Assembly: GCA_965153355.1 (NCBI GenBank)
Contig: OZ231126.1
Location: 35,526,001-35,590,000 of the forward strand
DNA length: 64,000 nucleotides
Direction: 5' to 3'
DNA from: Flaccisagitta enflata
Taxonomy: Eukaryota
Below are positions 1 through 55,065 of this stretch, in pieces. Position 1 is the stretch's first letter; each line of letters begins with the position of its first letter. The notes beneath the pieces are model-generated. The model saw only the letters and a list, made by a program, of their open reading frames with translations. It did not search any database and was not told the origin of the DNA. A program made the position numbers and the translations under genes.

Positions 1-1965
1 GATTTATGACGTGTATGTGTCATTGATTTATGACGTGTATGTGTCATTGATTTATGACGTGTATGTGTCATTGATTTATGACGTACATGTGTCATTGATT
101 TATGACGTACATGTGTCATTGATTTATGACGTGTATGTGTCATTGATTTATGACGTGTATGTGTCATTGATTTATGACGTGTATGTGTCATTGATTTATG
201 ACGTGTATGTGTCATTGATTTATGACGTGTATGTGTCATTGATTTATGACGTGTATGTGTCATTGATTTATGACGTGTATGTGTCATTGATTTATGACGT
301 GTATGTGTCATTGATTTATGACGTGTATGTGTCATTGATTTATGACGTGTATGTGTCATTGATTTATGACGTGTATGTGTCATTGATTTATGACGTGTAT
401 GTGTCATTGATTTATGACGTGTATGTGTCACTGATTTATGACGTGTATGTGTCACTGATTTATGACGTGTATGTGTCACTGATTTATGACGTGTATGTCA
501 GATTTATGACGTGTATGTGTCACTGATTTATGACGTGTATGTGTCACTGATTTACGACGTGTATGTGTCATTGATTTACGACGTGTATGTGTCATTGATT
601 TACGACGTGTATGTGTCATTGATTTACGACGTGTATGTGTCATTGATTTATGACGTGTATGTGTCATTGATTTATGACGTGTATGTGTCATTGATTTATG
701 ACGTACATGTGTCATTGATTTATGACGTACATGTGTCATTGATTTATGACGTACATGTGTCATTGATTTATGACGTGTATGTGTCATTGATTTATGACGT
801 GTATGTGTCATTGATTTATGACGTGTATGTGTCATTGATTTATGACGTGTATGTGTCATTGATTTATGACGTGTATGTGTCATTGATTTATGACGTGTAT
901 GTGTCACTGATTTATGACGTGTATGTGTCACTGATTTATGACGTGTATGTGTCACTGATTTATGACGTGTATGTCAGATTTATGACGTGTATGTGTCACT
1001 GATTTATGACGTGTATGTGTCACTGATTTACGACGTGTATGTGTCATTGATTTACGACGTGTATGTGTCATTGATTTACGACGTGTATGTGTCATTGATT
1101 TACGACGTGTATGTGTCATTGATTTACGACGTGTATGTGTCATTGATTTACGGCGTGTATGTGTCATTGATTTACGGCGTGTATGTGTCATTGATTTACG
1201 ACGTGTATGTGTCATTGATTTACGACGTGTATGTGTCATTGATTTACGACGTGTATGTGTCATTGATTTATAACATACATGTGTCATTGATTTATGACGT
1301 ACGTGTGTCATTGATTTATGACGTACGTGTGTCATTGATTTATGACGTACGTGTGTCATTGATTTATGACGTACGTGTGTCATTGATTTATGACGTACGT
1401 GTGTCATTGATTTATGACGTACGTGTGTCATTGATTTATGACGTACGTGTGTCATTGATTTATGACGTACGTGTGTCATTGATTTATGACGTACGTGTGT
1501 CATTGATTTATGACGTACGTGTGTCATTGATTTATGACGTACGTGTGTCATTGATTTATGACGTACGTGTGTCATTGATTTATGACGTACGTGTGTCATT
1601 GATTTATGACGTACGTGTGTCATTGATTTATGACGTACGTGTGTCATTGATTTATGACGTACGTGTGTCATTGATTTATGACGTACGTGTGTCATTGATT
1701 TATGACGTACGTGTGTCATTGATTTATGACGTACGTGTGTCATTGATTTATGACGTACGTGTGTCATTGATTTATGACGTACGTGTGTCATTGATTTATG
1801 ACGTACGTGTGTCATTGATTTATGACGTACGTGTGTCATTGATTTATGACGTACGTGTGTCATTGATTTATGACGTACGTGTGTGTCATTGATTTATGAC
1901 GTACGTGTGTGTCATTGATTTATGACGTACGTGTGTGTCATTGATTTATGACGTACGTGTGTGTC
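1..1965. repeat. 24-bp tandem satellite, consensus GTGTCATTGATTTATGACGTGTAT (continues past window start)
   Basis: About 80 near-identical units (VSLIYDVY in the ORF track). The variant ending GTACGT dominates 1290-1860 and 26-bp units occur at the end. Short 20-bp units at about 495 and 971 define a 476-bp higher-order block. Confidence 0.97.
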
Positions 1966-2138
1966 AAATATGGCCCCTCCCCACCCGCACGTGACCGGGG
2001 TAGCCGTGTATCTGGCCTTGTTGCATTGAAAAATGAATGTCACAATATGATTTACTTGTGTTGTTATGTCATTTACTTAGGTGTGACAATTGTTTTTTAA
2101 GCAACATACATGTCATTTTCTTTCCCTGTTGTCATTAG

Positions 2139-5100
2139 GTCTCGGCGGTGGAGAGCGAAGTTGATGATGACACCGCATTTCTTGATCAGCCCCATACTAA
2201 AAGAGATACAGCCCTTGCGGCTAACGACGCTTTTTCAACTGATGGAGAGTATCCTGAGATTCCGCCTGAGTTTGACACTTATCTTCGAGACACTCGTCAC
2301 TTGACCATACGCTCTAGAAAGAATTACATACCAAAGGTCAGACACTTTTTGGGTTACGTCGAAAAGACTACCAAACAACCGGCCCGTTTGGAGGAGGCGT
2401 GGAATGTTAATCTTGTGACAAAGTTTTTCATTGTTCTCAAGAAGCTCTACTGCCCGAGCACAATCATGACTTACTGGGCTTCTCAGCGGTGCATTCGCGA
2501 TTATCTGGCCATTGACGTGCGCCGGTGTCCCACGAATTACAATCAAATCAATGAGCAATTCGAAATTCAATCGAAAGCTGGCGGGAGGCGAAGAACCCAG
2601 CACTTGAAAGTGAGGAAGGAGGAACGTTTGAATGATTCCGACGATCTCATTCGGGACATTTGGATTAACATCTATCATAATCCATACTATTGGGACAAGT
2701 TGAACAGTCTAATTGATGAATTCAAAGGGGAAGCGGAGGAGGACGAGGAGAAGGAAGCAAAGCCATTAAGACGCCTCACTCAGCATGAGTTCTGTTTCGT
2801 CATTGGTTTTTTGGCGTGGCTGATCATTTTTGTTAACATGAAACGAAGTGGAAACATCGGTCTGCTGAAACTTGAAAGTACCAGTAAAGCGTTGAATGAA
2901 TCTCTAACAGCGTTCATGGCAAGAAATAAAGGGGTGAGAATTTCCCAACTGCCACGCGTTATTGACCCTAAAGCGGTGGTGCCAGCAGTTTTTGAGGTTA
3001 AAGAAAGCATGAAGAAAAAGGAAACTGAATATTTTTGCGTGCTCAACCCCCGCGATCAAAGGTAGTGATTTTTTTTGGGGGGGGGGGACGTTTTATTGTG
3101 AAACTCATTGCGTCATTTTGTTATTTATGTTTTAAATAATGGATGTTTTTCCATTTTTACCGACTTTCATTTTTAACAATCTTTATTATGCAATTTTTAA
3201 TTTTTCAATTTTTTGTTCCCTCCCTGTCCATATACAGAGCTCTCCTTCAATATGTGGAGTATCTCAGGCCTAATGGCCCAGTGGAGCCGCAGTGCGATTC
3301 ATTCTTTGTCAATTGTCGTGGCAACGCCTTGGACAAAGTTATACCGTACCTCCAAACCATCAGCGAAGATGCAAAAATTCCCAACGTCACCATTATGAAA
3401 TTGCGATCTTTAATTGAAACCGATAACTTCTTCCAGTCGTCAGAATCGGCCACCATTTCCGGACACATGGGCCACAACATGCGTGATGCCCTTCAGTACT
3501 ATGTCTCCCCACAAAAGGAACACGCCGCCAATGCTGTGGCCAAAATCACTGAAATTTTGCAGGAACGGGGCGAGAAGAAATATGTAGCGCCAGTCAAGAC
3601 ATTATGGAATCCTGTAAGTGAATGGGTCTTAGCCAATTTTGACATTTTGTTTTCAAGCTTAAGTCGTGACGTTTGATTTTGAATATTCATATTGATATTG
3701 ATATAACCACAGAGATATCTATTTTGACAAATGATTGCAGCTTTATGACATTTTTTTGCTCATTCATTTTTTCGCGCGCTATGTGATTCTACTGTCTGTC
3801 CATTGGTCAGTCAGTAGGTTGGGATGATTTACTTTTTCGCGGTCTTCGGCCTTGCTATTGAAATTCTGTAAATGCACCCTTGACTTCAGATCTGGCCTTG
3901 GCGACTGGTGATGCCGTGAATACGGTCTTTTTTACATTGCCCCCAATCTTTTTTTTCTTTTTCCCTTTGCAGGCGAGATGGGAGAGTGACCATGAAGAAG
4001 ACAAAGATGGCAACACAGAGGGATCTTCCAAAACTTTCGGCCGTGGTTCTAAAAGTAGCAAGGGCTATCAAAATGTACGATCTGTTAATTGATGTCTATA
4101 GTGTCAATATTTTATCTCCTAGTTTGACCGACAGTTCATTTTGATATCCACGGCGTTTGTGCTGATTTCATTTGTTTACATTTGATTTCATTTTTCTCAG
4201 CTTTCCGCTGCCCTTTCCGTTCGAAGTGGTAAGGATACAGGAAAGAAAGCTATTGCGACAGAATCATCCAAATTCCGCGAATCTGCACGTGGCGCGAGCT
4301 CCAGTGTGAGTATTTGGGTTTGCATGTAATTACTCCTATTGTACTACTTGCTATTGTATTAGTCTACTGAATAAATTGACCTTTTATATCACGTTTATAT
4401 TTGCATTTTTTGTGACATGTACTATTCACGACGTATATCATTTATTTATAACATAACTGAATGACATATGACACGTCATTTGTTCCTGAAACATGTCATT
4501 TATTTATGTAATATATGTCATTTGTGATATATGTCGTTCATTCATGACCTATGTATGTTATTTATTTATGATAAAAGTCATTTATTTATGACGTGTCATC
4601 TATTCATGACGTGTATGTGTCATCTATTTATGACATGTTTGCGGTATTTATTTATGACATTTCATTAATTAACAACGTGTCAGTTATTTGGTGTGTGTCA
4701 TCTATCTATGACATGCATATGTCATTTATTTATGACGTGCATGTCATTTATTTATGACATGTATGTGTCATTTATCTATGACGTGTATCTGCCATTTATC
4801 TATGACGTGTATGTGTCATTTATTTATGACTTCTTTGTGTCATTTATTTATGACTTCTTTGTGTCATTTATTTATGACGTGTATGTGTCATTTATTTATG
4901 ATACGTATGTGTCATTTATTTGATACGTATGTGTCATTTATTTATGACGTGTATGTGTCATTGATTTATGACGTGTATGTGTCATTGATTTATGACGTGT
5001 ATGTGTCATTGATTTATGACGTGTATGTGTCATTGATTTATGATGTGTATGTGTCATTGATTTATGACGTGTATGTGTCATTGATTTATGACGTGTATGT

Positions 5101-8100
5101 GTCATTGATTTATGACGTGTATGTGTCATTGATTTATGACGTGTATGTGTCATTGATTTATGACGTGTATGTGTCATTGATTTATAACGTGTATGTGTCA
5201 TTGATTTATGACGTGTATGTGTCATTGATTTATGACGTGTATGTGTCATTGATTTATGACGTGTATGTGTCATTGATTTATGACGTGCATGTGTCATTGA
5301 TTTATGACGTGCATGTGACATTGATTTATGACGTGTATGTGTCATTGATTTATGACGTGTATGTGTCATTGATTTATGACGTGTATGTGTCATTGACTTA
5401 TGACGTGTATGTGTCATTGACTTATGACGTGTATGTGTCATTGACTTATGACGTGTATGTGTCATTGACTTATGACGTGTATGTGTCATTGACTTATGAC
5501 GTGTATGTGTCATTGACTTATGACGTGTATGTGTCATATGTTTAGGCTAATGCAAATCTTTGCATATGCCTACATTGTCCATTAATTTTGCAGATTGGCG
5601 TTTCCGTTCTGCGTGTGAGTGAAGATAAAGATGCCAAAATAAGTGTATTTCGCCAGAGAGACATTTGTTATAACATCAATGACTTGTATTCCCACTCTTC
5701 CCATTTATGCTCAGAATGTCACTACGCGCAAAAATCGCAAAAAGGGCGCGGCTTACAAGGATGCTGCTGCAATTGGATTATCTGAAAGTTCAAAGGTGAG
5801 CCCTTCATACGTTGACAGTTTTGAAATTCATCAGCTTATGATTGCACTGCATCAACATTGCATTGCACTGCACTGCGATTTGTGACATATTCTTTTGCTA
5901 AGAACAAGGCCGGATACAAGGCAGGGGCAGTAGTGCAATAACTGCTTGCAATGCAGGAATGGGACAGGCAGACGGACCGACCTGACAAGTTAGACCTGCG
6001 TCCGCGACTAAAGATTATTTCTCTCTCTGCTTTTCTACTGTACTAGAATGCCGCTGCTCACGAGGGTGACAAACAAGTCCTAGCGTATAAGGTTGCTTCT
6101 CTCTCTCCTCACGCCGGCGCGGCGCCGATTGAATCGGCAATGGGAGTCGAGGGGAAGTCGGCCTCTGGGTCTTCTGGAGGCCGACGACCCCCTTCTCAAG
6201 GACCAGGGGCACCTCCCAATGAACGTCCACTGACAAAATGCCTCAAGGTGACTGTTGTAGAGACTTTTCAGTTTATCAGTTTATGTCTGTAAGGGATTGT
6301 AGACATAGATGTTTCCAGTTGCTTGCAATGACGAATATATCATCCTAAGAATCGCAAATCCACTTTCCATTTTTGCACCAGGATGCCGCTGCTCGTGTGA
6401 GGGACAAAGACGGCAAGGCTGACATGTTGGTCGTGCTTAATGCATCAAAAATACCAAAGGTTAGTGCCAAACTTGGGATAATAAGACGATTTCTCAGTTA
6501 ATCAGCTTTAGTGCATCCCCTATCACGACAATTGAATTTGCATTTACAATGTTTTTTGCTCGCAGACCTATTTTCAGCAGATGGGTTTTATTTCTGTTAT
6601 TAATATTTGCTCAACCCTCCCTTCTTAGACTGCCACTCCTGACGCCCCTGAAAATGTCAACGAAGGTGACGACGGCGAGGATGATAACGACGAAGGCGAG
6701 GATGATGACAACGACGGTGAGGATGATAATAACGATGGCGAGGATGAAACCAACGAAGGCAAAGATGAATGTAACGAGGGCGAGGTTAGAAGTGACCCGT
6801 ATGAGACGAAAAAAACTGCCGGATCATCTGAAGTCTTCAAGGTGGGTTCCAGTGATTAAAACTCATTCACTCAGTGGCCTTTTTTTAGACTGACGAACAT
6901 TCATTGTCAACGCGGTTAGAATAATCTGTTAGGACATTTCTTTCACTGTTGGCCTACGATACCTGCCTTTCTCTCAGGATGCGGTTTCAATTACTTCCGA
7001 TGGAGCTGATAGTGATGAGAAGCCAGACGAAATTTCATCTAAAATTGTTCCGGTAAGCGGTCAATCGTGACTCAATGCCTATCATGACAGATATATGTAC
7101 TTATCACGATTATCTGTGCCTATCTTGAGTCAGACTAGAATCAACTGTAGCAATGACTCAAAAGTAGGGAAGCATCTCTATCAAGCTAGTTCTATATTTA
7201 CATGCTTGTCAAATGGCACAAGGCTGGATACACGGCCAATACCTGTCGCGGATGGGTGGGCAGGTGCGGATATGCGCGTTTTTGCTCTTTCTCAACTCCA
7301 TGACCTCTATGGACCTACTGACCAACGGATAGACAAGGCCTCTTATTGAGTCGCTAGTCCGTGACTAAAAACATTCATTTTTTATTCACTAAAGAATTCG
7401 GTTCCGGGAATTATCTTTATTACCCATTTTAATTGTGACTTTTTTTTTATCTTTTGCATCAGGCAAGCCTCGCCTCAGATGACTTTAATTTGGAGATTGA
7501 TGAACAAGTCTTTCCCACGGCTTTAGTGCGTAATGTCGCGGGCATGGATGTTAATATAACACATTTGAACATAACGGAGGTGAGAACTGACTAGCTTGAT
7601 GAATCGGTAATATCTACATCTAGCCGGCTATATGAGATGAGACTAATTGTGGCAGGTTCATGGTAATGAGACATTTTATTTTAAGTTTTATTCAACTGTG
7701 CTTTGTTTGCATTCACTAATTGTTAGTCCCTCTTGTTTTAGCTTTGAGCCATGTAATTTGTTATTTGACCTGTGGTTCCTTTCCTTACCTGCCCTTGTCT
7801 CTTTTAACAGCAAGGAGGACTTGGAGTGTCCGTTCCCATTGACGTTGATTGCTGCGAAGATTCGACTCATTCTTTGGTAAGGCTACATAAAACGTGGAAC
7901 AATATCCCTCACTATGCCCAAACTGGAGTAAATGGAAGAGGGCTTTGTGAGTTGCTGGCTACTTTACATGTACACCGCTCCTTGTTTTTCAACAAACAGA
8001 ATCTGAAACTTTCTTAATCTACCTCAAAAGGGAATGTTCCTTTTATTAACGTATATGAGACCAGTTTATTGAGCATCAAAATAATTTTCCCATACCTTCT

Positions 8101-9507
8101 TCCCCAATATGCAGACGCCGGTTGGATCTGCAAATCTGCAAATTATCTCTATCTCGCCAACAGTAATTGATCATGACTTCGATGGTGATTATCAGGTCAG
8201 TTTTGCGTCGGTCGTATACATTTGTACCTAAAGTGAAGTTTCTTGGTGACAAATTTTTTCTTCCTCAGTCAAAGCACCTCTAAAACTAACTCTGTCAATT
8301 TGTCGACCTGTCTGTCCGTAATGCACTTATGTAACGATCCACATGTCACACCTTATTGGCCTACTTGGCCCTGTTGATATGTCTATTCACAGCTGCCAGG
8401 CCCTTTTATTGGCACTATCATTCTAGATATTGCCTTCGTTTGCTTCCTTCCTTCCAATATTCTGTCACAATCTTCCTAATTTCATTTTCGACAGGCCACG
8501 TCTCGAACAGAAGTGATTCAACGATCCCCAGACGAGCAAGAAGAAACTGACTCCAGTTTTTTGCCTGGGAGTGGAAATTTGTCAAATCTAAGCAGCTCAA
8601 ATGAAACGAAAGAACTTCCACTGGTGAGTCAGTCGGTTATACATTACTTATGATGGTGGACAATGTTTGGGTCATGTGCAACTGAATTGTTCACTGTCTG
8701 TCCTTCTGTCCGTCTGTCACTAGCACTCTTTTTCTGTGTAAATTCAAAAGGCCATTGTCTTTATTCCCATTTGTATCATTCTTTTTTCCATTTGTATCTT
8801 TTTTTCTTGGTTATCTAAAAACCAGACCGCCTATTGATTTAGATGAAAATTTCATAATTATACAACACTATCCCCAGGTGCGGAAGGCCGATTCGCCAGC
8901 ATCTGTCATTGACAGTAAACGCTCCAAAGAATCTCTTCAGTCTCCGTCAACCATGCGGCAAGGGTCCTTAAAAGAAATGTTCGCCGCTCAAGCAGTACGC
9001 AAATTTTTATCTCCAACCCTCGATACGGCGACTTCATCTTCTACAGCCTCGGGAGAATTTACACAAGCAGCATCGACGTCGAAATCTACAGTAACTGCAG
9101 AAAACTCACCCTTAAAACGTGTGGCGAAAGCTGTGGTAACACCTGCAGCAAGACTCTCGGTAAAACCCCCGGTAAAACCCCCGGTAGAACCCCCGGTAAA
9201 ACCCCCGGTAAAACCCCCGGTAAAACTCCCGGTAAAACCCCCGGTAAAACCCCCGGTCAAACGCGTGGCCAATCCCGCGGCCAAATCCGCGGCCAAATCC
9301 GCGGCTAAATCCGCGGCCAAATCCGCGGCCAAGCCCGCGGCATCGACAGCCAAGACGTTGAAATCGATAGACTCATCAAACACGAGGGCGAAATCTTCTA
9401 CGTCCTCTTCTTCGTCCTCTGCTTCTTCGTCCTCTGCTTCTTCGTCCTCCGCTTCTTCATCTACTTCGTCATCTTCGAGCGGGCGCCGACTCCGTCCGCG
9501 CCCATAA
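2139..9507 (+). CDS. Spliced tyrosine recombinase (lambda-integrase fold, Crypton-type) with long low-complexity C-terminal tail; 5'-partial, 15 exons, about 1075 aa
   Basis: Hand-built exons, all AG/GT bounded and in frame: 2139-3061, 3238-3613, 3973-4074, 4201-4305, 5594-5644 (donor least certain), 5715-5795, 6047-6247, 6382-6459, 6629-6841, 6978-7052, 7463-7579, 7811-7876, 8115-8195, 8495-8623, 8878-9507 (TAA). Exon 1 has a SAM-like segment FDTYLRDTRHLTIRSRKNYIPKVRHFLGYV and the first catalytic Arg in NMKRSGNI (2844). Exon 2 has YVEYLRP, FFVNCRG, TIMKLRSLIET (second Arg, 3404) and ISGHMGHNMRDALQYY (His, Tyr nucleophile). The domain call is more secure than the small tail exons. Confidence 0.8.
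4690..5537. repeat. Intronic copy of the 24-bp GTGTCATTGATTTATGACGTGTAT satellite
   Basis: Same unit as 1-1965, lying in intron 4 of the recombinase gene; grades into degenerate units from about 4400. Confidence 0.95.
5902..6012 (-). mobile_element. Short HINE/DINE-1-like (Helentron-associated) repeat copy
   Basis: AACAAGGCCGGATACA... to ...CGCGACTAAA, matching the ends of fuller copies at 44016-44180 and 46360-46570. Similar fragments occur at about 1969-2022, 7218-7370 and 8300-8375. Confidence 0.6.
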
Positions 9508-9874: not shown

Positions 9875-12515
9875 TATGTGACATAAAATTACGGCTAATG
9901 TGACATACAATTATGACTTATATATGACTTGTTATTATGACAAATACATGACATAAGATTATGAATAATACTCGATTAAGATTAATTTGTGCTATAATTG
10001 TATGTCACAAATGCCAAAATCATGTCACATATAGTCAGTCTTATGTCACATATAGCCATAATCTTATGTCACAAATTAATCATATATCAAATTTAAGTCA
10101 TGTCACATATTAGTCGTAATCTCAACTGGTATGTGAGGTATGAATATGATTAACATGTGACTTATGGTTATGACTAATATGTGACCTACAAACATTTGTA
10201 GACTATTATGTGACATGCGGTTATAACTGACTTATTATGTAAGATTATGACTGTATGTCACAAAAGATTGACTAATATATGAATTAATATCATGACTGAA
10301 ATGTGACATGATGATTATGGCTGATAAGTGACATTTTAATGTCACTGATATATTTAGATTATGACTGATATGTGACCTAAGATTATGGCTACTATGTGAC
10401 ATAAAATTATGGTTGATATGTGACATAAGATGGCCTGATATGTGACCTTTAATTATGACTAATGTGTGACATAAGATTGTGACCACTATGTGACATAAGA
10501 TTAAAGTTGATATGTGACATAGGATTTTGACTAATGCTATAAAAGATAATCAGTTGGTGACATGATATGTGACATAGGATTATGTCTGTGACTTTTAATT
10601 ATGACAATATGTGATATAAAATTATGACCAATATGTGACATAAGATTGACTGATACGTGACATAAGGTTATAACTGATATGTGACAAAAGATTATGGCTG
10701 AAATGTGACCTTAAATTATGTTTAACATGTGACAAAAGGTTAGTACTGACTAATGTGACAAATTATTATAACTGACATGTGACAAAAGATAATTGTCATG
10801 TGACATAAGATTATGTCTGAATGACATATGATTATGATTAATATGTGACATAAGATTATGACTTATGCGTGACATAAGATTATAGCTGATATGCGACATA
10901 AGATTAAGACTAACATGTGACATAAGATTATGAGTATTACATGACATAAAATTATGTTTGATATGTGACATAATATTATGACTGATATGTGACATGAGAT
11001 TATGGCTGATGTCTGACATAAGATTATGGCTGATGTGTGACAAAAGATTACGACTGACATGTGACATAAGATTGTCTGACATGTGACATAAAATTATGAC
11101 AATATGTGACATAAGATTATGACAAGTATGTGACTTAAGATTTTTTATTATTATGTGACATAAGATTATAACTAACATGTGACATAAGTTTATAACTAAC
11201 GTGTGTCATAACATTATAACTAACATGTGACATATTATTATAACTGATATGTGACAAAAGATTACAACTGACATGAGACGAAAGATTATAACCGACATGT
11301 GACATAAAATTGTAACTGGCATTTGACATAAGATTATGAGTGACATAAGATTATGGCAGATGTGTGACATAAGATTGTGGCTGATATGTGACATAAGATT
11401 ATGTTTGATGTGTGACATAAGATTATGACTAATGCGTGACATAAGATTATAGCTGATATGCGACATAAGATTAAGACTAATATGTGACATAAGATTATGA
11501 GTATTACGTGACTTAAAATTATAATTGACATTTGACATAAGATTATAATTTATTTGTGACATAAAATTATAACTGATATGTGACATAATATTATGACTGA
11601 TATGTGACATAAGATTATGGCTGATGTGTGACAAAAGATTACGACTGACATGTGACATAATATTGTCTGATATGTGACATAAGATTATGACCAATATGTG
11701 ACATAAGATTATGACTAGTATGTGACATGAAATTTTTAATTGATATATGACATAAGATTATAACCAACATGTGACATAAGTTTATAACTAACATGTGACA
11801 TAATATTATGACTGATATGTGACCAAAGATTATAACTGACATGAGACAAAAGATTATAACCAACATGTGACATAAATTTATAACTGATATTTGATATAAG
11901 ATTATGAGTGATATGTGAAATAAGATTATGGCAGATATGTGACATAAGATTGCGGCTGATATGTGACATAAGATTGCGGCTGATATGTGACATAAGATTA
12001 TGGCTGATGTGTGACATAAGATTATGACTAGTGCGTGACATAAGATTATAGCTGATATGTGATATAAGGTTAAGATTAATATGTGACATAAGATTATGAG
12101 TATCATGTGATATAAAATTATAATTGACATGTGACATAAAATTTTAATTGACATGTGACATAAAATTATAATTGATATGTGACATAAGATTATAATTAAT
12201 ATGTGACATAAAATTATAACTGACATGTGACATAATATTATGACTGATATCTGACACAAGATTATGGCTGATGTGTGACATAAGATTGTCTGATATGTGA
12301 CATAAGATTATGACCAATATGTGAGATAAGATTATGACTAGTATGTGACATAAGATTATGACTAGTATGTGACATAAGATTATGACTAGTATGTGACATA
12401 AGATTATAACTGGCATGTGACTTAAAATTATAATTGGCATGTGACACAAGATTATAGCTGATGTGTGACATAAGATTATGACTAATATGTGACATAAGAT
12501 TATGACTGATATGTC
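9875..12515. repeat. Degenerate 24-bp satellite, conserved core TGTGACATAAGATTAT plus variable 8 nt
   Basis: About 100 units. A higher-order landmark GCGTGACATAAGATTATAGCTGATATG recurs at about 10867, 11434 and 12033. A short inverted patch lies at about 9997-10120. Confidence 0.93.
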
Positions 12516-13342
12516 AAAGTGTGTGTCTGCGGCTATAAACCGGATTCTTTGACGGGCATTTTAGTCCATGTTGCCAAATCAGTCGACTCTTAACATGATG
12601 TTTGAGATGCTGTGAGCTGTTTTGATGGTTGCCACTTTAAAGTCCTAGCCTAACTGTGTGAGTTCCAACACTCAAAAACAATCGACATCGAAAAAACTGA
12701 CGCTATCACATTTCTGCGCCATCTTTATGTTGTCCAAGTCTGTTTGAAGTTGTGGAATTATGATGGTGTGACATTTAGATTATGCGTAGTTTTTATGTAT
12801 TAGAAAGACCAATGAATAGACCATTGAATGGACTAAGTAAAATTAAAAGCTGTTGTGGACACGTTATCCAAATCGCCCATGCTGTTTAAGGTTGTCCTTG
12901 GGCAGGACATGAGTGTTTCTAGTTGAAAATTGACAGTGCTCCGCTTTGTTGGAGAGACAGATATGGCGGCAAATTTGAAAGTAAGAAATCCGTATTGAGA
13001 TGGAAGGATATGTTGTTCCATTCTACTCCAGTTGGTAGAATCAGGTCTATTCAATGCTGTATGCCAAACAGACTGACAGCCAAATTATGTGGCTCCTTTC
13101 TTCATACCTATTGCGACATTTGTTTTCATCAATGTCATTCAATTTTACTGTTCGAAGTTGCGTGCAAAGAACTTTGACCCATAATATTGATAGGATGGTT
13201 AGTCAGTCCTACTCAATATTTTCGGCTTCGATGGATGTCCTTTGCATTACTGCTCCTGCCCAAATGCTTCGTTAGCCTATTTCATCACCGCCCCTGCTTA
13301 CCGACCCACACATCAGTAGCCATGTATCCTGCCTAGCAATAA

Positions 13343-13562
13343 GAGCCGCTCGATACATTCTTAGCAGGCAAGAAGGCGGGCCTTAAGACTGAGACAAATG
13401 GAACTTTCTTTGGAAGAAAAAGAGATGGATGAAAAAAGGTAGGAAGGCTGGATCTATTGAGTCATTTACTAATGTGACACAACGTCACAGCGCTGTGACG
13501 TTTTCCAGAAAAACGTCACAAGCCTCCCATTGGATTGTACGGGGAATTTTTCGCGGAAAGTA
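13343..13562 (+). mobile_element. Palindrome-rich element terminus, shared in reverse complement with 44239-44475
   Basis: Perfect 22-bp palindrome AACGTCACAGCGCTGTGACGTT (13481-13502) overlapping an 11-bp inverted repeat TGTGACGTTTT-N5-AAAACGTCACA. Similarity to the 44 kb copy stops abruptly at GCGGAA(A/T)G|TA. Confidence 0.7.
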
Positions 13563-13918
13563 ACATGGTTTTCATTTTCTTATTAGAAAGTTGAGGATCT
13601 CCACCGACCGATTGAGGCCTTCAATGAAATTGATAGGGTAAGTAAATTTGATAATTCTCTTTCATTAGGCGCCAAACAGGATGCTCTACAACAAATATTT
13701 TTGGCGTTATGAATTTTTAAAGATTTATTTACGAAAAATTCAAATTGAATTTTTTTCGATTTATTATGATTTTAAGTAGGATCAATAAAAGAGTGTATTT
13801 ATATTTTTTTGAGCATGCAAATACAAGAAAACATGTTTATGAGCATAGCTGCTCATCTGTGAGGGTGTTTTTGAGCATTCTAGCTCATTTAGCTCATTTA
13901 GCTCATTTTGCTTAATTC

Positions 13919-14040
13919 TTTTTAGTCGCGTGCACGCGACTCTACAACCCGATCCGTCGGTCTGTCGGTCGGTCCGTCCGTAACACTTTGCTTTTTTTCG
14001 TCTTTTTGGGTGGTCTGGAGTTATTTTGAGTCATTTTTTT
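13919..14040 (+). mobile_element. HINE/DINE-1-like repeat, 5' part
   Basis: TTTTTAGTCGCGTGCACGCGACTCTAC 5' hairpin followed by a (GTCG/GTCC)n microsatellite, as in the 44016 and 46360 copies. Confidence 0.65.
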
Positions 14041-21313: not shown

Positions 21314-21386
<73 letters not shown>

Positions 21387-43600: not shown

Positions 43601-44015
43601 TTCATTCAATCATTTTCTTTCTTTCATTCAATCTTTTCTTCAATCTTTCCTTCAATTTTTTTTCTCTCTCTCTTTCTCTCTTTCACCTTCTCTATTTCTC
43701 GCATTCTTTCCATTACAGGCCTAAAATCAGCCCTTTCAAACCTAAAATCTAATCACTTGCTCAATTCAGCCTCATAATAACCTCTCAGGTCTCTAAACCT
43801 GCCCTCATCCTGATCTTATCACTGAATAATGAATCAAATCAGCCCTTAAATGTGCCCTTTCAGGACGTCTGGAAATTCACCCCTGATGGGACATCAGCCT
43901 TTGGGGCCTTCCTGCTCTATCCACTTTCTTAGCTGATCTGCTCCAAGCGGGTATTAATTTTACCACGACCATGTACGATCCTTGGATGACTAGTTTACTT
44001 TTCTTGTTTTTCTTT

Positions 44016-44180
44016 CTTTTTAGTCGCGGACACGCGACTCTACACCTTGCCGTGTCGGTCGGTATGTCGGTAGGTCCGTCCGTCGGTCCGTCCGTCACAT
44101 TTTTGAATTCCGAGCGGTATTCGCATTACTGCACCTGCGCAACCGTCCGCGACTGGATTGCCGTGTATCCGGCCTTGTTT
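44016..44180 (+). mobile_element. Complete short HINE/DINE-1-like element
   Basis: 5' TTTTTAGTCGCGGACACGCGAC hairpin, (GTCC/GTCG)n core, subterminal CGCGACT and 3' stem-loop GCCGTGTATCCGGC followed by CTTGTT. This is the Helentron non-autonomous layout. Confidence 0.7.
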
Positions 44181-46359
44181 TCCTCCTAAAAAGTCCTATT
44201 TCCTTTCTTTTTTGTTAAATTCAGTTCTTCTCTTTTCTTACATTCCGCGAAAAATTCCCCATACAATCCAATGGGAGGCTTGTGACGTTTTTCGGAAAAC
44301 GTCACAGGGCTGTGACGTTGTGTCACAATAGTAAATGACTCAATATATCCAGCCTTTCTAGCTTGTTCATCCATCTTTTTTTTCCCCATGGAAAGTTGCA
44401 TTTGTCTCATTCTTGGGGTTTGGATAAGTATTCCACCTTCTTGCCTGCTAAGAATGTTCTGTGCGACTCAGCTTTATGAAAAGAATAAATCAAGTGGCAT
44501 TATAACAGAAAAACAATGTCACAATATGCAACAGGAAGGAAACCACAGAATGTCTGTTAGTCTGTCCAACCGTGCGTCAGATTGTTGGTCCATAGGTAGG
44601 TCAGTTGCAATCAAGTTGAAAAGAGGTAAACATGCATTTTGTGACATATGTGTTTACTAATTGTCATACTACAGACGAAAGTGAAATACAAGAAGTTAAC
44701 CCCCCAAAAACTGTAGCACCCCCCCCTACAGCCTCAACCACAAATTGAAGAAAGACATATAAGGTAAGGAATGGAAAGTCATATCAATACAGTTAGCCTC
44801 ATCATAGCGATTTTGGAATTTCATTCCCAGTAAAGATGTAAAAAAACTAGTAAATTGCATTTTAGTATTTAAAAGTGTTAATTTGTGTAGTTTTAAGCTA
44901 TAATTTTTATTGGAGAAAATAAATGTCACATAAAGCAAGAGGAAGGGAGCCACATAATATGTCTGTTAGTCTATCTAACAGTGCATTGGGTTGTTGGTCC
45001 ATAGATTGGTCAGTTGTGATCAAGTTGAAAAGAGTTAAACATGCATTGTGTGACAGGTGTATTTACCGATTGTCATACCAATAAGCAAGATATCTCATTA
45101 TTGGTATTAACTTTTGTCACAATGAAAAACATAAGTGTATAATGTGTGAAAACTAATGTCACAAAAGCTGACAACAGATGTCACAGTAGGTAAGATGAAG
45201 TAATCGATAACTTGTCTGCCTGTATGTCAGTCTGCTTATCAGTGCATTGGTTCATTGATGTGAGGTGATCAAGCTGATACGAGTTAAACATCCATATTGT
45301 GCCCTTTGTCTTTATTGATTTCCACACTTCTAAACAAGAATTTTCATGATCTTTAAAAATCATTGTCACAATTAAAGATAGATACCACAATGAGTAGAAA
45401 CCAATGCCACAAAGGGTGAAAATAGATGTCACAATAGCTGAGATGAAGGGAGCAATAACTTGTTTGCCTGTATGTCAGTCTGTCATATAAACTATTGTCA
45501 CAATGAAAAACATTAATGTCACAAAAGGTAAAAACATATTTCACAAAGGGTAACAACAAATGTCACAATATATAAAATGAAGTAATTGATAACATGTCAT
45601 TCTGTTTTACAGTGCATTGGTTCCTTGATCTGGGGTGAATTATCTGAATAAAGTCACACATCAATTTTGTGACATTTTTCTTTATTGATTCCCCCCATAA
45701 GAAATTTTGCAATTTGTAAAAACTATTGTCACAATTAAAAATGATTACCACAATGTTCAGAAACCAATCTCACAAAGGGTGTAAACATATGTCACAATAT
45801 GTAAGAAGAAAGAAGCCATGAGTTGTCTGCCTTTATATCAGTCTGTCAATCAAAGCATTAGTTCCTTGGTCCATTGGTTGGTACTGGATGGTCAAAAAAG
45901 AAGTAACCAGGGTTATTTTTGTTGACCACCCATTATGTGATTTTTTTGAAAAGAGGTAAGTATTCATTTTGTGACATTTGTTTTACCTGATTCTCACACT
46001 AATAAACAAGAAATTTCACTACTTGCAAAAACTATTGTCATAATGAAAAAATAAAGGCAAAAATATGTAGAAACCAATGTCACAAAGGGTGAAAACAGAT
46101 GTCATATTAGGTGAGATGAAAGGAGCCATAACTTATCTGCATAACTTATCTGTCAGTCTATATGTTGGTAAATTGGTTCTTTGGTCCATTGGCTGGGAAA
46201 GGGTGGTCAAAAAAGAAATAACCATGGTTACTTATTTTGACCACCCATTATGTGACCAAGCTTAAATAAGTTTAACATTTATTTTGTGACATTTCATTTT
46301 ATTGATTGTCATACTAATAAACAAAAAAATCATTCTTTATAACAATCATTGCCACAATG

Positions 46360-46570
46360 AACAAGGCCGGATACACGGCTACCCCAGTCGCGTGCGGGTG
46401 GGCAGGGGCCATAATTGAGGTCAGTTCATCATTTGGGCAGGAGCAGTGAGGCTAAAAATCGCAAAAACCCAAAAAAAGTAAAGTGTGACGGACGGACGGA
46501 CGGACGGACGGACTGATGGATGGACGGACCGACAAAGCGGGTTGTAGAGTCGCGTAGCACGCGACTAAAA
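46360..46570 (-). mobile_element. Complete short HINE/DINE-1-like element
   Basis: AACAAGGCCGGATACACGGCTACCCCAGTCGCG...(GACG)n...GAGTCGCGTAGCACGCGACTAAAAA. Further copies occur at about 56896-57063 and 61650-61940. Confidence 0.7.
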
Positions 46571-46859
46571 AGAAATGCTACAATATGCAAATGCCAATGT
46601 CTCAAAAGGTAACAACAGATGTCACAACCGGTTACATTAAGAGAGACATAACTTGTTTGCCTGTATATCAGTCTGTGATATAATTTTTTTTTAACAATGA
46701 AAATCATAAATGTCATAATATGTGAAAAACTATTGTCACAAAAAGTGAAAACAGTCACAGTCGGTAAGTTCATTGGCTCCCTGGGCCATTGGTTGGAAAA
46801 GAGTGGTCAAAAAAGAAGTGACTCAGGTTATTTTTTTTTTGACCACCCATTATGAAGGT

Positions 46860-48594
46860 AGCCACCTTCTTCGGTGTTGAGGATGGATCAAGCAGACATT
46901 TAGCAGACACCTACTACTAAATTGGGGATGGATCCAGCAGACACCCAGCAGACACCAAATACGCATGTGTGAGCTGGATCTAGCTGACAGTCATCTGATG
47001 GCTACTACTAATTTGGGGATGGGTCAGCAGACACCCAGCAGAACCTACTACTAATTTAGAGTGGTCAACAGACACCTTGACACCAAATAATTAACGTTGT
47101 ACTGACTATAAATGTCATCAGGCATAACTTCTACTAATGTGGAGATTGGACCAGCAGACACCCAGCAGACACCTACTACTATGTTTGAGATGGATCCAGC
47201 AGACACCCATCAGACACCTAGTACATGGCGCTGTACAAACTCTATAAATATCTGCAGGCACCTTCTATAATGTAGAAGTTGTACCAGCAGACACCCAGCA
47301 ACCCAGACACCTACTACTCACAGTTGGGGATGGATCCAGCAGACACCCAGCTGACTTTCACCACTGGTTGAGGATGGATCCTTAGACACCAGCAGACACC
47401 TACTACTCAGTTGGGGATAAGATCAGCAGACACCCAGCAGACACCAAATACTAACGGTGTGCATTTATAGAATATGCTGCTGAGCACCTTCTACTAAGTT
47501 GAGGATGGACTCAGCAGACACCCTAACAGACCACCTCCACTACTAATTTGGGGATAGGTCCAGCAGACACCCAACAGACACCAAATAATTTACGTTGTAC
47601 TGACTGTGAATGTCCATCAGGCACCTTCTACTAATGAGATTGGACATGAACTTAGCAGACACCTACTACTATGTTGAGGATGGATGCAGCAGACACCCAT
47701 CAGACACCTAGTACTTAGCGATGTTCTGACTATAAATGTCTGGCAGGCACCTTCTACTAATGTGGGATTGGTCCAGCAGGCACCCAGCAGACACCTACTA
47801 ATAAGTTAAGGATGGATCCAGCAGACACCCAGCAGACCTCTACTGGTTAGGAGAAATGGATCCAGCAGACTGTAGACACCAATACTTAACGTTGTACTGA
47901 CTATGAATGTCTAGCAGGCACCTTCTACTAAGTTGGGGAAGGACTCAGCAGACACTTAGCAGGCACTTACTGCTAGGTTAGGGATGAGTCCAGCACAGAC
48001 ACCCAGCAGACACCAAATAATTAACGTTATCCTGGCTATGAATATCTAGCAGGCAGCTGCTACTAAGGTGGGGATTGGGTCAGCAGACTCCCGCCAGACA
48101 CCTACTACTAAGTTTTGGATACATCCAACAGACACCCATCAGACACCAAAAACTTGACGTTGTACTGACCTATGAATGTCTAGCAGGCACCTTCTACTAA
48201 TGTGAGGACATGAACAGCTGTGGTTACTACTACTAAGATTAAGACCAGATCAGTGACACCAGCAAACTTTCACTACTAAGTTGGGGATGGATCCTTGAAC
48301 ACCCAGCAGACACCAAATACTTAACGTTGTACTGACTATGAATATCTAGCAGGCACCTTCTACTAATTTAGGGATGGGTCTGGTGCCAACAGACACCTAC
48401 TAATTTGGGGATGGGTCCAGCAGACTTTGTGAACACACAAATATTAACGTTGTACTGACTGGAGAAATGTCATCGAGCGCCTTCTACTAATGTAGGATTG
48501 GACCAGCAGACACCTTGAACCACCTACTATGTTGGAGATGGATCCAGCAGACACCCATCAGACAGCTACTAAGTACATAGCGCTGTACTGACTC

Positions 48595-48595
<1 letters not shown>
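46860..48595. repeat. Degenerate tandem array built on CAGCAGACACCCAGCAGACACCTACTACTAA..GGGATGGATC
   Basis: Recurrent subunits of about 45-55 bp with many indels (possibly unpolished sequence). Confidence 0.85.
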
Positions 48596-48650
<55 letters not shown>

Positions 48651-48689
48651 CTATTCACTGTATCAGAATGTCTCAATCAGTGACAATCA

Positions 48690-49360
48690 GATGCACATAT
48701 TTGGGGATGGTAGTAGTTGTAGTTCACAAGTTCAAAGAGTGAGAGTGAGAGAGAAAGAGAAAAAGAGAGAGACAGACCATTCAGTCATTCAGTAAGACTC
48801 AATTTGAGACAATCAGAATTACATATTTGGACATGGCTGTGGTAGCAGTTCATATGTTCTTTAGTTAGGGCCATAGTAATCAAGGTGAACAGGTGGCATT
48901 TGTTTTTACCTATTGTGACATTTGTGTTTACTAATTATGAAATTTGCCTTAATCCTTTGTGGTGCTCCTCTTTACCTACTGTGACATTTGATTATGATTT
49001 ATTGAATGACACTGACTCACGATTTTTTAACCATCTTCAAAGGGACATGTTCAGTCAATCAGAATCTAAGTAGAGTAGGTACATCTTGATGACACAGATT
49101 GAGTCATAATGAATGACTAAATGGTACACAGTAAGGGAGAGACCAGTGACAAGAGGGGCTAGCGGGGTCAGAATACATGTTAAGCATGTTTTCTTTATCT
49201 GCTCAGAAGGTTGCTCATTTTCTTCAAAACCCTCTTTATATATACATATGCATATATAAAGGGCTTTTTGGGGAAAATGAAGGGGTAGATTCAGCAAAGA
49301 GCAAAAAAGACTCAACACTAATTCTTACCCCGCTAGCCCCTCATGTCACTGGTGTCCTCC

Positions 49361-49440
<80 letters not shown>

Positions 49441-50115
49441 AATACACATATTTGGGGACTGGTAGTAGTTGTAGTTCACAAGTTCAAAGAGTGAGAGTGA
49501 GAGAGAAAAAGAAAAAGAGAGAGACAGACCATTCAGTCATTCAGTAAGACTCAATTTGTGACAATCAGAATTACATATTTGGACATGACTGTGGTAGCAG
49601 TTCATATGTTCTTTAGTTAGGGCCATAGTAATCAAGGTGAACATGTGGCATTTGTTTTTACCTATTGTGACATTTGTGTTTACTAATTATGAAATTTGCC
49701 TTAATCCTTTGTGGTGCTCCTCTTTACCTACTGTGACATTTTATTATGATTTATTGAATGACACTGACTCAAGATTTTTTAACCATCTTCAAAGGGACAT
49801 GTTCAGTCAATCAGAATCTAAGTTGAGTAGGTACATCTTGATGACACAGATTGAGTCATAATGAATGACTAAATGGTACACAGTAAGGGAGAGACCAGTG
49901 ACAAGAGGGGCTAGCGGGGTCAGAATACATGTTAAGCATGTTTTCTTTATCTGCTCAGAAGGTTGCTCATTTTCTTCAAAACCCTCTTTATATATACACA
50001 TAAGCATATATAAAGGGCTTTTGGGGAAATTGAAGGGGTAGATTCACCCAACAGCAAAACGGACTCAATAACAATTCCCACCCCGCTAGCCCCTCTTGTC
50101 ACTGGTCTCTCCCTG
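48690..50115. repeat. Tandem duplication of about 750 bp, each copy containing a MITE of about 230 bp
   Basis: 48693-49365 is nearly identical to 49445-50115 (duplicate ORFs at 48885 and 49637). Inner TIRs are AGGGAGAGACCAGTGACAAGAGGGGCTAGCGGGG / CCCCGCTAGCCCCTCTTGTCACTGGTCTCTCCCT. Confidence 0.88.
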
Positions 50116-51115
50116 AGAGAGAGAGAGAGAGTCCCAATTCAGTCAATCAGAATGTCTCAATCAGAGACAATCAGATCATCTGGTTCAGATGCACATATTT
50201 AGCGATGGCGGTAGTTGTAGTTTAAAAACCCAGCCCACTCACACGGGACTTAGGTATCCGTGTACTCAGCCTTGTTAGCCTTTGTGACGTTTGTTTCCAC
50301 TCATGATGACATCTATCCTTATTTACTCCGGCGTTTGTCTGCACTTAATGTGACATTTGTTTTTTCTTCATGACTTCTGTCTTCACCAAGAATGTTTTGT
50401 GACGTTTGTTTCTACTTATTGCTTATGATAACATGGCTTTGTGTGGTGTGACACTTAATTCTAAGGATATGAACATTGAGCTGAGACACGCAGAACATTC
50501 TTGACAAGGAGAATGATAGAATCAGAATGTAGCCCCCAAGGCGGAGAGGCAAAAACAATCGTCACTATAGTCCTTTTGTGACGTCTGGTTCTTAACACTT
50601 AGCAGTTTCAACCTCCCGGCGCTCTCAATATCACCCGAAGAATGTATACGTGTTTCTCTCGAATATGTCAAAAAGTCGAAGACGGACTTTGACTTTTTTC
50701 CCGATAAAGCGCCCCCCCTCCAAAAAGCACCCCCCATTTTTTTTCTTAGTGTCAACCTCTTCAGAAAAGAGTTGCATAGAAATACAAAGTAAAATGATGT
50801 AAAAACACAACACAATGAGCTATTTTCACTGACTTTCTAACAGATATATGCAATGAATATGTCTATTTAGAGTCAAATTTAGCATTTTGATTGCCTTTTA
50901 TGAAAAAAATAGATTGAATAACAGATTATCTTAAAACAAAGGGGGCGCTATTTGGAGGGTTAAAAAGCAAAGTCAAATTTCAATTTCATAGATTTCATAG
51001 ATTTGTGTCGCAAGAAAACTTAGTAAACCAGACCAACAGTTTTCTGTCGGGCCCGCTAAAATTGTTGGGAGCAAGCGCGACTGGCCTGCTCAAGAAAGAT
51101 CGAGGGCTGTACATA

Positions 51116-54891: not shown

Positions 54892-55065
54892 GGTAAAAGA
54901 CAAATGATTTGGGGCCTAAAATGATACTATTTCCAGATATCGTATAAATGATGGGACTGTGAACTGTCTACAGTTTTGGAGTGCAATACAAAAGGATGAA
55001 TTTGAAAAAAAATTGAATTCTGGAGGTGGGAGGGATTGGGGCAAGATCAACACATTGTCACAATG

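What the first reader, a model, noticed from the sequence alone, without database searches (positions are those of the whole stretch)
13343..13562. Palindromic terminus downstream of the recombinase also caps a second element 31 kb away: candidate autonomous/non-autonomous pair
Seen: 13343-13562 matches the reverse complement of 44239-44475, including nested CGTCAC/GTGACG dyads, and similarity stops at the same base next to TA. In both cases TGTGAC-rich sequence lies on the inner side of the terminus. I could not find the partner end (like 50480-50644) between the recombinase stop and the 9875 array. Inference: this element extends leftward over the recombinase gene and beyond the window (more than 13.5 kb), which would make the recombinase its mobiliser.
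Basis: partly seen in the sequence, partly recalled or inferred. Interest (0 to 1): 0.75.

Follow-up and report, generated by a model that had tools for sequence, protein, structure and literature searches.

The report
Repeated transposon end, recombinase link unproven
The 220-base palindrome-bearing stretch is a real, moderately repeated end of a non-coding inverted-repeat mobile element family in a repeat-rich marine eukaryote genome, but nothing found here ties it to the tyrosine recombinase gene 10 kb away.

Summary
13343-13563 matches the reverse complement of 44238-44475 (83% over 234 columns, 90% over the outer 180). Similarity ends at the same base (...GTAA), and both copies carry the nested TGTGACG dyads.

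Contigs of three public DNA runs cover the outer ~150 bases at about 5-50 times the depth of the single-copy DNA beside them, so this is a repeat family.

The second copy caps a 6.4-kb element with no recognisable coding capacity (44238-50644). Its two arms are inverted relative to each other, its tips match 9 of 11 bases (TACATTCCGCG / TACATTCTTCG), and it has TA at both junctions.

- Homology between the two elements reaches only 13065-13563.
- 12515-13228 is single-copy.
- The terminus piece is sandwiched between fragments of a hyper-abundant repeat that resembles non-autonomous Helentrons (HINE).
- At least one of the two 24-bp arrays flanking the recombinase gene belongs to that repeat; the other lacks its right-module signature.

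The recombinase is a genuine, divergent Crypton-like tyrosine recombinase (48 relatives; profile hit to XerA). It contains an intron and has no in-frame ATG, and none of the terminus motifs lie near it.

Best reading: an ordinary non-autonomous inverted-repeat transposon end. The link to the recombinase is untested and unlikely.

The parts
13343..13563 (+). T_A: terminal module (right end) of element A. The outer ~180 nt is the conserved family core.
   Evidence: match to 44238-44475; depth 1276-3765 in X1 and 670-7442 in X2, against 86 and 139 for the single-copy DNA beside it
13473..13520 (+). Four alternating TGTGAC(A/G) half-sites. They form a 6-bp hairpin (13473-13489), the 22-nt palindrome (13481-13502) and an 11-bp-stem hairpin (13494-13520). 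The hairpin ends 43 nt inside the terminus.
13065..13135 (+). Subterminal module of element A. It is homologous to modules repeated in both arms of element B: inverted relative to the left arm, direct relative to the right arm.
13241..13340 (+). Fragment (right module, 'Y') of the hyper-abundant HINE-like repeat R. It interrupts element A just inside T_A.
   Evidence: depth 5.7e5; joints 139xx->13241; alignment with four other R right ends
13565..14023 (+). Left module ('X') of repeat R, starting 1-4 nt outside the terminus of T_A.
   Evidence: depth 2e6-1.2e7; pieces start at 13562, 13565 and 13567
44238..44475 (-). T_B: the same terminal module, forming the left end of element B.
44238..50644 (.). 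Element B: 6.4 kb, with no recognisable coding capacity. Its diverged arms are inverted, its interior is tandem arrays, it holds a nested R copy at about 46340-46600 (-), and TA lies at both junctions.
   Evidence: Pfam on 13 of its 14 ORFs of at least 70 aa found no hit at or above Pfam's cut-off
50270..50644 (+). Right end of element B. It ends ...CGAAGAATGTA|TA, holds three TGTGACGT motifs, and is weakly homologous to T_B in inverted orientation.
   Evidence: score 56 vs shuffle mean 27, max 54; 63% over 152 nt, E 5e-7
9877..12514 (+). 24-bp tandem array (TATGTGACATAAGATTATGACTAA) inside or beside element A. Whether it belongs to A is unresolved.
2139..3061 (+). Tyrosine recombinase exon 1: SAM-like N-terminal domain and the first catalytic Arg (NMKRSGN). 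It has no in-frame ATG.
3238..3613 (+). Tyrosine recombinase exon 2 (LRS..ETDN, GHN..YY). It ends at a gtaagt donor-like site or reads on to the stop at 3676.
1..2028 (+). 24-bp array (GATTTATGACGTGTATGTGTCATT) followed directly by the ~60-nt right module of repeat R. This is the tail of a HINE-like element, not part of a recombinase element.

Best explanation
13343-13563 is one terminal module of a moderately repeated family of non-autonomous mobile elements with inverted ends. A full member is 44238-50644.

That member has short terminal inverted repeats (TACATTCCGCG... / ...CGAAGAATGTA) and TA at each junction. Its arms, about 2 kb each, are diverged and built of repeated modules that carry TGTGAC(A/G)T motifs pointing outward. 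Its interior is satellite-like. I infer that the motifs, and the four alternating half-sites that make the palindromes 43-90 nt inside the end, are the binding sites of the family's transposase.

The most likely mechanism is cut-and-paste by a DDE transposase encoded elsewhere in the genome, of Tc1/mariner-like type if the TA is a target-site duplication. This step is inferred, not shown.

The copy at 13.5 kb is a diverged, possibly truncated arm. Its recognisable homology spans only 13065-13563, and it has since been hit by fragments of a hyper-abundant HINE-like repeat.

The tyrosine recombinase gene at 2139-3613 is a separate, Crypton-like gene. It lies next to the terminus by chance of position, in a very repeat-dense region.
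For: Repeat family and boundary
- The two copies match far above chance and stop at the same base in two unrelated flanks.
- Depth over 13382-13534 is 15-44 times (X1), 5-54 times (X2) and 2-21 times (X3) that of the adjoining single-copy DNA, and it rises towards the terminus.
- At 13435, 13439, 13454 and 13492 most other copies carry the letter that element B carries.

Inverted-end architecture of B
- Left arm against right arm gives 25 minus-strand HSPs (1822 nt) and 2 plus-strand HSPs (164 nt).
- The terminal 11 nt match at 9 of 11 positions, and only three sites in the window fit the end motif.
- TGTGACGT occurs 9 times in 64 kb, all within the three ends.

Non-autonomous
- 13 of B's 14 ORFs of at least 70 aa were scanned against Pfam; none reached a Pfam cut-off.

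Element A is short or unrelated further in
- Homology to B covers only 13065-13563, and the 24-bp array gives no HSP to B's arms.
- 12515-13228 is single-copy.
Against: - No autonomous partner was seen. 118 of the window's 141 high-entropy ORFs of at least 70 aa were scanned, and none matched a DDE transposase, reverse transcriptase or Rep/helicase at E <= 0.001.
- The TA 'duplication' rests on three ends and no empty site. The TA could instead be part of the element.
- The right boundary of B is supported only by weak similarity (score 56 against a shuffle maximum of 54; E 5e-7) and by motif content.
- Extensive subterminal motif arrays are not typical of Tc1/mariner elements (from general knowledge).
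- The only recombinase-type gene in the window is the tyrosine recombinase, on the same strand as T_A.
- The 24-bp units flanking that gene and the unit inside A are related: 16 of 24 positions match, and 15 of 5000 shuffles do as well.
Confidence: 0.55

Rival explanations
1. The end belongs to a family mobilised by the neighbouring Crypton-like tyrosine recombinase. Element A is the autonomous copy, more than 13.5 kb long and running off the window's left edge, and element B is its non-autonomous derivative. The inverted TGTGACG half-sites would be the recombinase's binding sites.
For: - The recombinase is real and is the only recombinase-type gene found in the window (118 of 141 ORFs scanned).
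- It lies on the same strand as T_A.
- No partner end lies between it and T_A.
- The hairpin can be read as two 10-bp inverted arms around a 6-7-nt spacer. That is the geometry of tyrosine recombinase core sites as described in PMC3212892 (passages).
- The 24-bp units beside the gene and inside A are related.
Against: - Homology between A and B stops at 13065, and 12515-13228 is single-copy.
- A and B stay about 96% identical for 43 nt beyond the last half-site, so the element junction is not in the putative core spacer.
- TGTGACGT is absent near the gene.
- The array at 1-1954 ends in the right module of the HINE-like repeat R, so it belongs to another element.
- The gene has an intron and no in-frame ATG where its closest full-length relative starts.
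- Between the gene and A lie R insertions and in-frame ORF pieces flanked by splice-site motifs, which look like further exons (inference).
- Cryptons are described as lacking terminal inverted repeats (PMC3212892 and PMC13465315, passages).
Confidence: 0.1
2. The family is a rolling-circle (Helentron/HINE-like) non-autonomous element. T is its right module with a 3' hairpin, 50644 is its 5' end, and tandem arrays are carried between the two modules.
For: - The architecture matches the HINE description: two modules with subterminal inverted repeats (about 24 nt, 20 of 24 matching: AGCTGAG.C.C.CAGAACATTCTT at 44475 and 50478), a hairpin near one end only, and tandem arrays in between. Source: PMC7492417 and PMC4067079, passages.
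- The window is saturated with a true HINE-like repeat.
Against: - The subterminal repeats lie about 145 nt from one end and 215 nt from the other. HINEs have them 2-4 nt from the 5' end and 38-60 nt from the 3' end.
- The hairpin ends 43 nt from the terminus, against 8-35 nt in HINEs.
- The flanks are not T-rich or TT (ACATGG, AGAAAAG, TACGTG).
- The very tips are inverted repeats with TA beside them (against the values in PMC4067079).
- No Rep/helicase was found in the window.
Confidence: 0.15
3. Not a mobile-element terminus. Either it is a module shared by local inverted duplication or satellite-associated DNA, or T_A and T_B are the two inverted repeats of one 31-kb unit (13343-44475).
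For: - T_A and T_B are in inverted orientation 30.7 kb apart.
- The inner edge of T_A coincides with another repeat.
Against: - Tens of copy-equivalents occur in three runs, including a metagenome.
- The sharp, best-conserved edge faces the intervening DNA, not away from it.
- Similarity decays outward from 13343 and 44475 and reappears as modules at 13065-13135 and 44909-44972.
- The intervening DNA holds an importin-5-like host gene.
- B has its own inverted partner arm.
Confidence: 0.08

Closest known systems
Non-autonomous TIR DNA transposons with TA target duplication (Tc1/mariner-type deletion derivatives or MITE-like elements)
   Same: Short terminal inverted repeats, TA next to all three ends seen, no coding capacity, and moderate copy number.
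   Different: Much larger (6.4 kb). It has about 2-kb arms of repeated modules, dense subterminal motif arrays, nested palindromes at one end only and a satellite-like interior. No transposase partner has been identified and no empty site seen.
Foldback-like elements (long modular inverted arms)
   Same: The arms are built of tandemly repeated modules in inverted orientation around a variable middle.
   Different: The arms are only 63-79% alike at module level. Foldback target duplications are longer (recalled, not checked), and none is seen here.
HINE / DINE-1 / Cg_HINE (non-autonomous Helentrons)
   Same: Two end modules, subterminal inverted repeats, a hairpin near one end and tandem arrays carried in between (PMC7492417, PMC4067079).
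   Different: The positions of the subterminal repeats and the hairpin fall outside the published ranges. There is no TT or T-rich insertion site, and the tips are inverted repeats with TA. The window's true HINE-like repeat (R) is a different family.
Crypton (YR-only DNA transposons)
   Same: The neighbouring gene encodes only a tyrosine recombinase with a SAM-like N-terminal domain and R..K..R..H..Y, it has an intron, and no reverse transcriptase lies nearby.
   Different: Cryptons are described without TIRs, with 4-6-bp terminal direct repeats (PMC3212892). The boundaries of any element around this gene are unknown. There was no DUF3504 or GCR1_C hit: Pfam at E <= 0.01 found Phage_integrase in 2 of 21 family members and a SAM-like domain in 1.

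Membership tests
Tyrosine recombinase superfamily (the gene at 2139-3613) | Catalytic R, K, R, H/W and Y in order, within a fold related to Xer/Cre | tested here: met
   The profile of 21 family members hits XerA 5hxy (E 7.7e-6) and a XerC-like protein 4a8e (E 7.2e-5). In the alignment, S.KK pairs with sgKGdK, LRxxxET with LRHtfAT, and LGHs...Y with LGHa...Y. The window's exons carry NMKRSGN, MKKK, KLRSLIETDN and GHN..QYY. The His of the classical HxxR is not conserved.
Crypton | Encodes a YR and no reverse transcriptase | tested here: met
   No RT, RNase H or methyltransferase hit in 118 of 141 ORFs scanned. tblastn of 78 relatives finds one YR locus only.
Crypton | No TIRs; 4-6-bp direct repeats at the two termini (PMC3212892) | not testable with these tools
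   The ends of any element around the gene are unknown, and no assembly or second copy is available. The T family itself has inverted ends, so it does not fit this feature.
HINE / non-autonomous Helentron (for the T family) | 12-15-bp subTIRs, 2-4 nt from the 5' end and 38-60 nt from the 3' end | tested here: not met
   The inverted 24-mers lie about 145 nt from the 50644 end and about 215 nt from the 44238 end, against the ranges in PMC4067079.
HINE / non-autonomous Helentron (for the T family) | Palindrome 8-35 nt from the 3' end; insertion in TT or T-rich DNA without duplication | tested here: not met
   The hairpin ends 43 nt from the terminus. The flanks are ACATGG, AGAAAAG and TACGTG.
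Canonical Helitron | 5' TC, 3' CTRR, hairpin about 11 nt from the 3' end, insertion between A and T | tested here: not met
   The ends read ...GGAA[A/T]GTA(A), with no CTRR. Criteria from PMC4067079.
Tc1/mariner-type TIR transposon (for the T family) | TIRs and a TA target-site duplication | tested here: inconclusive
   9 of 11 terminal bases are inverted and TA lies beside 3 of 3 ends. No empty site was seen, so duplication is not shown.
Tc1/mariner-type TIR transposon (for the T family) | DDE/D transposase in autonomous copies | not testable with these tools
   None in the window. The genome is not held, and the metagenome scan for the end found nothing.

The most novel reading that the evidence does not exclude
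The TGTGACG half-site arrays and the inverted ends are the recognition sites of the divergent Crypton-like tyrosine recombinase encoded next door. That would make a eukaryotic YR transposon family that has terminal inverted repeats, autonomous and non-autonomous members, and satellite cargo, which is unlike any described Crypton.
Probability: 0.08. Interest if true: 0.7.

Novelty: new member of a known kind. Interest (0 to 1): 0.25.

Why it matters
As it stands, this is routine repeat annotation. It defines one end, and probably both ends, of an uncharacterised non-autonomous transposon family that carries tandem arrays. It also shows how a hyper-abundant HINE-like repeat fragments other elements in this genome.

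It would matter more if the recombinase link were real, because eukaryotic YR-only transposons (Cryptons) are described without inverted ends and their recombination sites are poorly defined.

The recombinase family itself has 48 representatives and no Pfam model of its own. That makes it a modestly useful addition to the catalogue of eukaryotic tyrosine recombinases.

Tried and rejected
- **Recombinase relatives with flanks:** the metagenome scan failed with the 21-sequence alignment (error) and found none by tblastn with a 6-sequence alignment. The viral scan also found none.
- **Terminus palindrome in metagenome contigs:** 0 matches.
- **Word-index protein searches:** no named relatives. 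All cluster members are unnamed ENA records.
- **Earlier findings of this scan:** nothing.
- **RNA families:** no Rfam family and no tRNA in the window.
- **RNA reads:** no read on the terminus in the 6% of run X23 that was read. This is not evidence of absence.
- **Canonical Helitron ends:** rejected, no TC/CTRR.
- **One 31-kb unit with T_A and T_B as its inverted repeats:** rejected. The sharp, best-conserved edges face inward, and B has its own partner arm.
- **Target duplications of 3, 8 or 9 bp at B:** none fits the flanks read.
- **ESM Atlas look-alikes of a relative:** only unnamed or generic integrase clusters. Treated as a lead only.

Full report
**1. The observation**

The match is real. 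blastn of the window against itself pairs 13385-13563 with 44414-44238 (90% over 180 nt, E 3e-62) and 13355-13379 with 44457-44433. With permissive gapped scoring the pair is 13343-13563 against 44469-44238, 83% over 234 columns. A local alignment scores 318, against a maximum of 51 in 200 shuffles.

Both copies end ...GGGGAATTTTTCGCGGAA[A/T]GTAA, and the next 30 bases are unrelated.

The 22-nt palindrome AACGTCACAGC[G/C]CTGTGACGTT occurs only at these two places, with 0 expected by chance. It overlaps an 11-bp-stem hairpin (TGTGACGTTTT, a loop of 4-5 nt, AAAACGTCACA) that folds in both copies at z -3.3 and -3.75. The two copies differ in the palindrome centre and the hairpin loop. They do not differ in the arms.

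**2. Context**

The window is eukaryotic and very rich in repeats. It holds 31 tandem-array rows and few long ORFs. On the minus strand, around 20.9-24.8 kb, lies an importin-5-like gene in pieces. No whole genome is held for this window.

Runs labelled with one coded organism hold 0.64 and 0.50 of the words of 12520-13990. Many marine metagenome runs hold small shares.

**3. Anatomy of the family**

The second copy (T_B) is the left end of a 6.4-kb unit, 44238-50644.
- The interior is tandem arrays with periods of 315, 45, 135 and 435 bp, plus a 788-bp duplication.
- 13 of its 14 ORFs of at least 70 aa were scanned against Pfam. None reached a Pfam cut-off; the one match is a low-complexity DUF3915 hit below it.
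- The left arm (44238-46330) against the right arm (48596-50644) gives 25 minus-strand HSPs and 2 plus-strand HSPs, so the arms are inverted relative to each other.
- The right end reads ...CGAAGAATGTA|TACG and the left end reads ...TTCT|TACATTCCGCG. That is 9 of 11 terminal bases inverted, with TA at the junction. Only three sites in the window fit this end motif, the third being 13552-13562.
- The last 380 nt of the right arm align to 44396-44541 in inverted orientation at 63% (E 5e-7). This is weak support: a local alignment scores 56 against a shuffle maximum of 54.
- The 8-mer TGTGACGT occurs 9 times in 64 kb, all within the three ends.
- TGTGACAT is confined to 9877-12767, to B's left arm (10 of its 14 copies on the reverse strand) and to B's right arm (forward strand).

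**4. Copy number and the boundary, from public reads**

I laid the contigs of two DNA runs of the coded organism (X1, X2), one marine metagenome (X3) and one polyA RNA run (X23) on 12515-14023, at 80% likeness.

| Region | X1 depth | X2 depth | Reading |
|---|---|---|---|
| 12515-13228 | 86 | 139 | one clean contig per run; I take this as single-copy |
| 13382-13534 (the terminus) | 1276, 1933, 3765 | 670, 2042, 7442 | rises towards the end |

Summed contig depth is not a copy count. Relative to the neighbouring DNA it says tens of copy-equivalents. At 13435, 13439, 13454 and 13492 most of that depth carries the letter found in element B, so copy A is the diverged one.

Two neighbours are hyper-abundant. 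They are 13241-13297, decaying to about 13340 (depth 5.7e5), and everything from 13562-13567 rightward (2e6 to 1.2e7). Five listed pieces begin at 13562, 13565 or 13567. Many contigs run from 13944-13998 straight into 13241. So these two are the left (X) and right (Y) modules of a single repeat, which I call R. The terminus piece therefore sits between a Y fragment and an X module of R.

No RNA read lay on the terminus in the 6% of X23 that was read.

**5. What R is**

Five R right ends in the window align and all stop at ...GTAGCCGTGTATCCGGCCTTGT(T). Upstream of that end, R has a short hairpin and a GTCC/GTCG microsatellite.

A left module with a GTCY-type microsatellite, a central tandem array and a ~60-nt right module is the published organisation of Cg_HINE and DINE-1-type non-autonomous Helentrons. 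I read passages of PMC7492417 and PMC4067079.

The 24-bp array at 1-1954 is followed directly by this right module at 1958-2028. That array is therefore the cargo of an R-type element, which ends 110 nt upstream of the recombinase exon.

**6. How far element A reaches**

Homology between A and B is limited to 13065-13563. It consists of the terminal module plus one subterminal module at 13065-13135, which matches B's left-arm modules in inverted orientation and B's right-arm modules in direct orientation. The R fragment lies between the two.

- 12515-13060 is single-copy and unrelated to B.
- The 24-bp array at 9877-12514 shares only the TGTGACAT core with B and gives no HSP to either arm at E <= 1e-3.
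- Its unit matches the unit of the arrays at 1-1954 and 4593-5537 at 16 of 24 positions on the same strand; 15 of 5000 shuffles do as well. It may therefore be HINE-type cargo as easily as part of A.
- The left edge of the array has a short inverted block at 10002-10255, but nothing there resembles an end.
- No partner end exists anywhere in the window.

**7. The recombinase**

The ORF pieces 2139-3061 and 3238-3613 are joined by a GT..AG intron. Removing it restores an unbroken alignment to a 437-aa relative at residues 300/301.

- An exhaustive HMMER search found 48 relatives with E <= 1e-3. Six had E <= 1e-30. Full-length relatives are 420-470 aa.
- All relatives looked up are unnamed ENA records.
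- A profile of 21 of them hits the tyrosine recombinases XerA (E 7.7e-6) and a XerC-like protein (E 7.2e-5). The catalytic Lys region, the second Arg, the His and the Tyr align.
- Pfam sees only sub-threshold Phage_integrase (2 of 21) and a SAM-like domain (1 of 21), and no DUF3504.
- The window's exon 1 has no in-frame ATG. The closest full-length relative's Met falls at the stop codon that opens the ORF. A good acceptor precedes the ORF.
- The relatives mostly end at ...(D/E/Q)(P/Q)V. In the window that V is the GT of a gtaagt. Several in-frame pieces flanked by splice-site motifs follow downstream. I infer that further exons exist, but this is not shown.
- No reverse transcriptase, DDE transposase or Rep/helicase was found in the 118 of 141 ORFs scanned.

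So this is a Crypton-like gene that encodes only a tyrosine recombinase.

**8. Is the terminus linked to the recombinase?**

For a link:
- The gene and T_A are on the same strand.
- It is the only recombinase-type gene in view.
- No partner end lies in between.
- The 24-bp units are related.
- The hairpin has a core-site-like geometry (10-bp arms, 6-7-nt spacer).

Against a link:
- The homology stops at 13065, and the single-copy stretch follows.
- The array at 1-1954, next to the gene, belongs to R.
- No TGTGACGT lies near the gene.
- A and B stay about 96% alike for 43 nt beyond the last half-site. A crossover in that spacer would therefore not produce the observed boundary.
- Cryptons are described as lacking inverted ends (PMC3212892 and PMC13465315, passages).

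The link is not excluded, because the window's left edge cuts the view and no other copies could be fetched. I put it at about 0.1.

**9. Mechanism**

Shown:
- A repeat family with a fixed outer boundary.
- Inverted arms.
- Outward-pointing motif arrays.
- No coding capacity in the one complete member.

Inferred:
- The motifs bind the family's transposase.
- The family moves by cut-and-paste with a TA duplication.
- The autonomous partner lies elsewhere in the genome.

A Helentron-like rolling-circle origin is the main structural rival. It fails the published positional criteria for subTIRs, palindrome and TT target.

**10. Verdict**

It is an ordinary, previously uncatalogued non-autonomous transposon end in a region shredded by a hyper-abundant HINE-like repeat. 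The autonomous/non-autonomous pairing with the recombinase is unsupported.

Noticed in passing
window 13241-13340, 13565-14023, 1958-2028, 5895-6015(-), 7190-7276(-), 44013-44182, 46340-46600(-): A hyper-abundant repeat (R) with a hairpin, a GTCC/GTCG microsatellite, a variable or tandem-array centre and a ~60-100-nt right module ending ...GTAGCCGTGTATCCGGCCTTGT. Its depth is 10^4-10^5 times that of single-copy DNA in three runs. The organisation matches published HINE / Cg_HINE non-autonomous Helentrons.
   Followed up: partly
window 1-1954 and 4593-5537 vs 10130-12514: Two 24-bp satellite variants match at 16 of 24 positions on the same strand (15 of 5000 shuffles do as well). The first array ends directly in the R right module. 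The second lacks one and lies among what look like introns of a plus-strand gene.
   Followed up: partly
window 2139-3613 (+): A divergent tyrosine recombinase family: 48 representatives in 1.84 billion proteins, no Pfam model of its own, and the classical His of HxxR not conserved. Most relatives end at ...P/Q-V, where the window has a gtaagt. That suggests a conserved intron and unseen C-terminal exons.
   Followed up: partly
window 3973-4074, 4201-4305, 5593-5613, 5708-5788, 6048-6092, 6383-6460, 8686-9507 (+): A chain of short in-frame (phase 0) pieces flanked by AG/GT motifs. Several begin (N/D)AAA and end in K, and the chain ends in a low-complexity PVKPPVK/poly-Ser ORF with AATAAA about 80 nt after its stop. 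It may be the tail of the recombinase gene or a separate gene.
   Followed up: no
window ~20900-24800 (-): Exons of an importin-5-like (IPO5 / HEAT-repeat) host gene: TPR_IPO5 E 2e-35 and Importin_rep_4 E 1e-25.
   Followed up: no
window 55063-55641 and 57159-58167: 120-bp tandem arrays whose unit carries a hairpin (GATGCGAGGACGCATC) and an ACGG-type microsatellite on the opposite strand. This looks like whole short R-like elements repeated head to tail.
   Followed up: no
window 9875-10255: The left edge of the 24-bp array is an inverted block. Units run forward at 9877-9960, reverse at 10002-10255 (6 copies), then forward again. This marks a local inversion or fold-back at the array edge.
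   Followed up: partly
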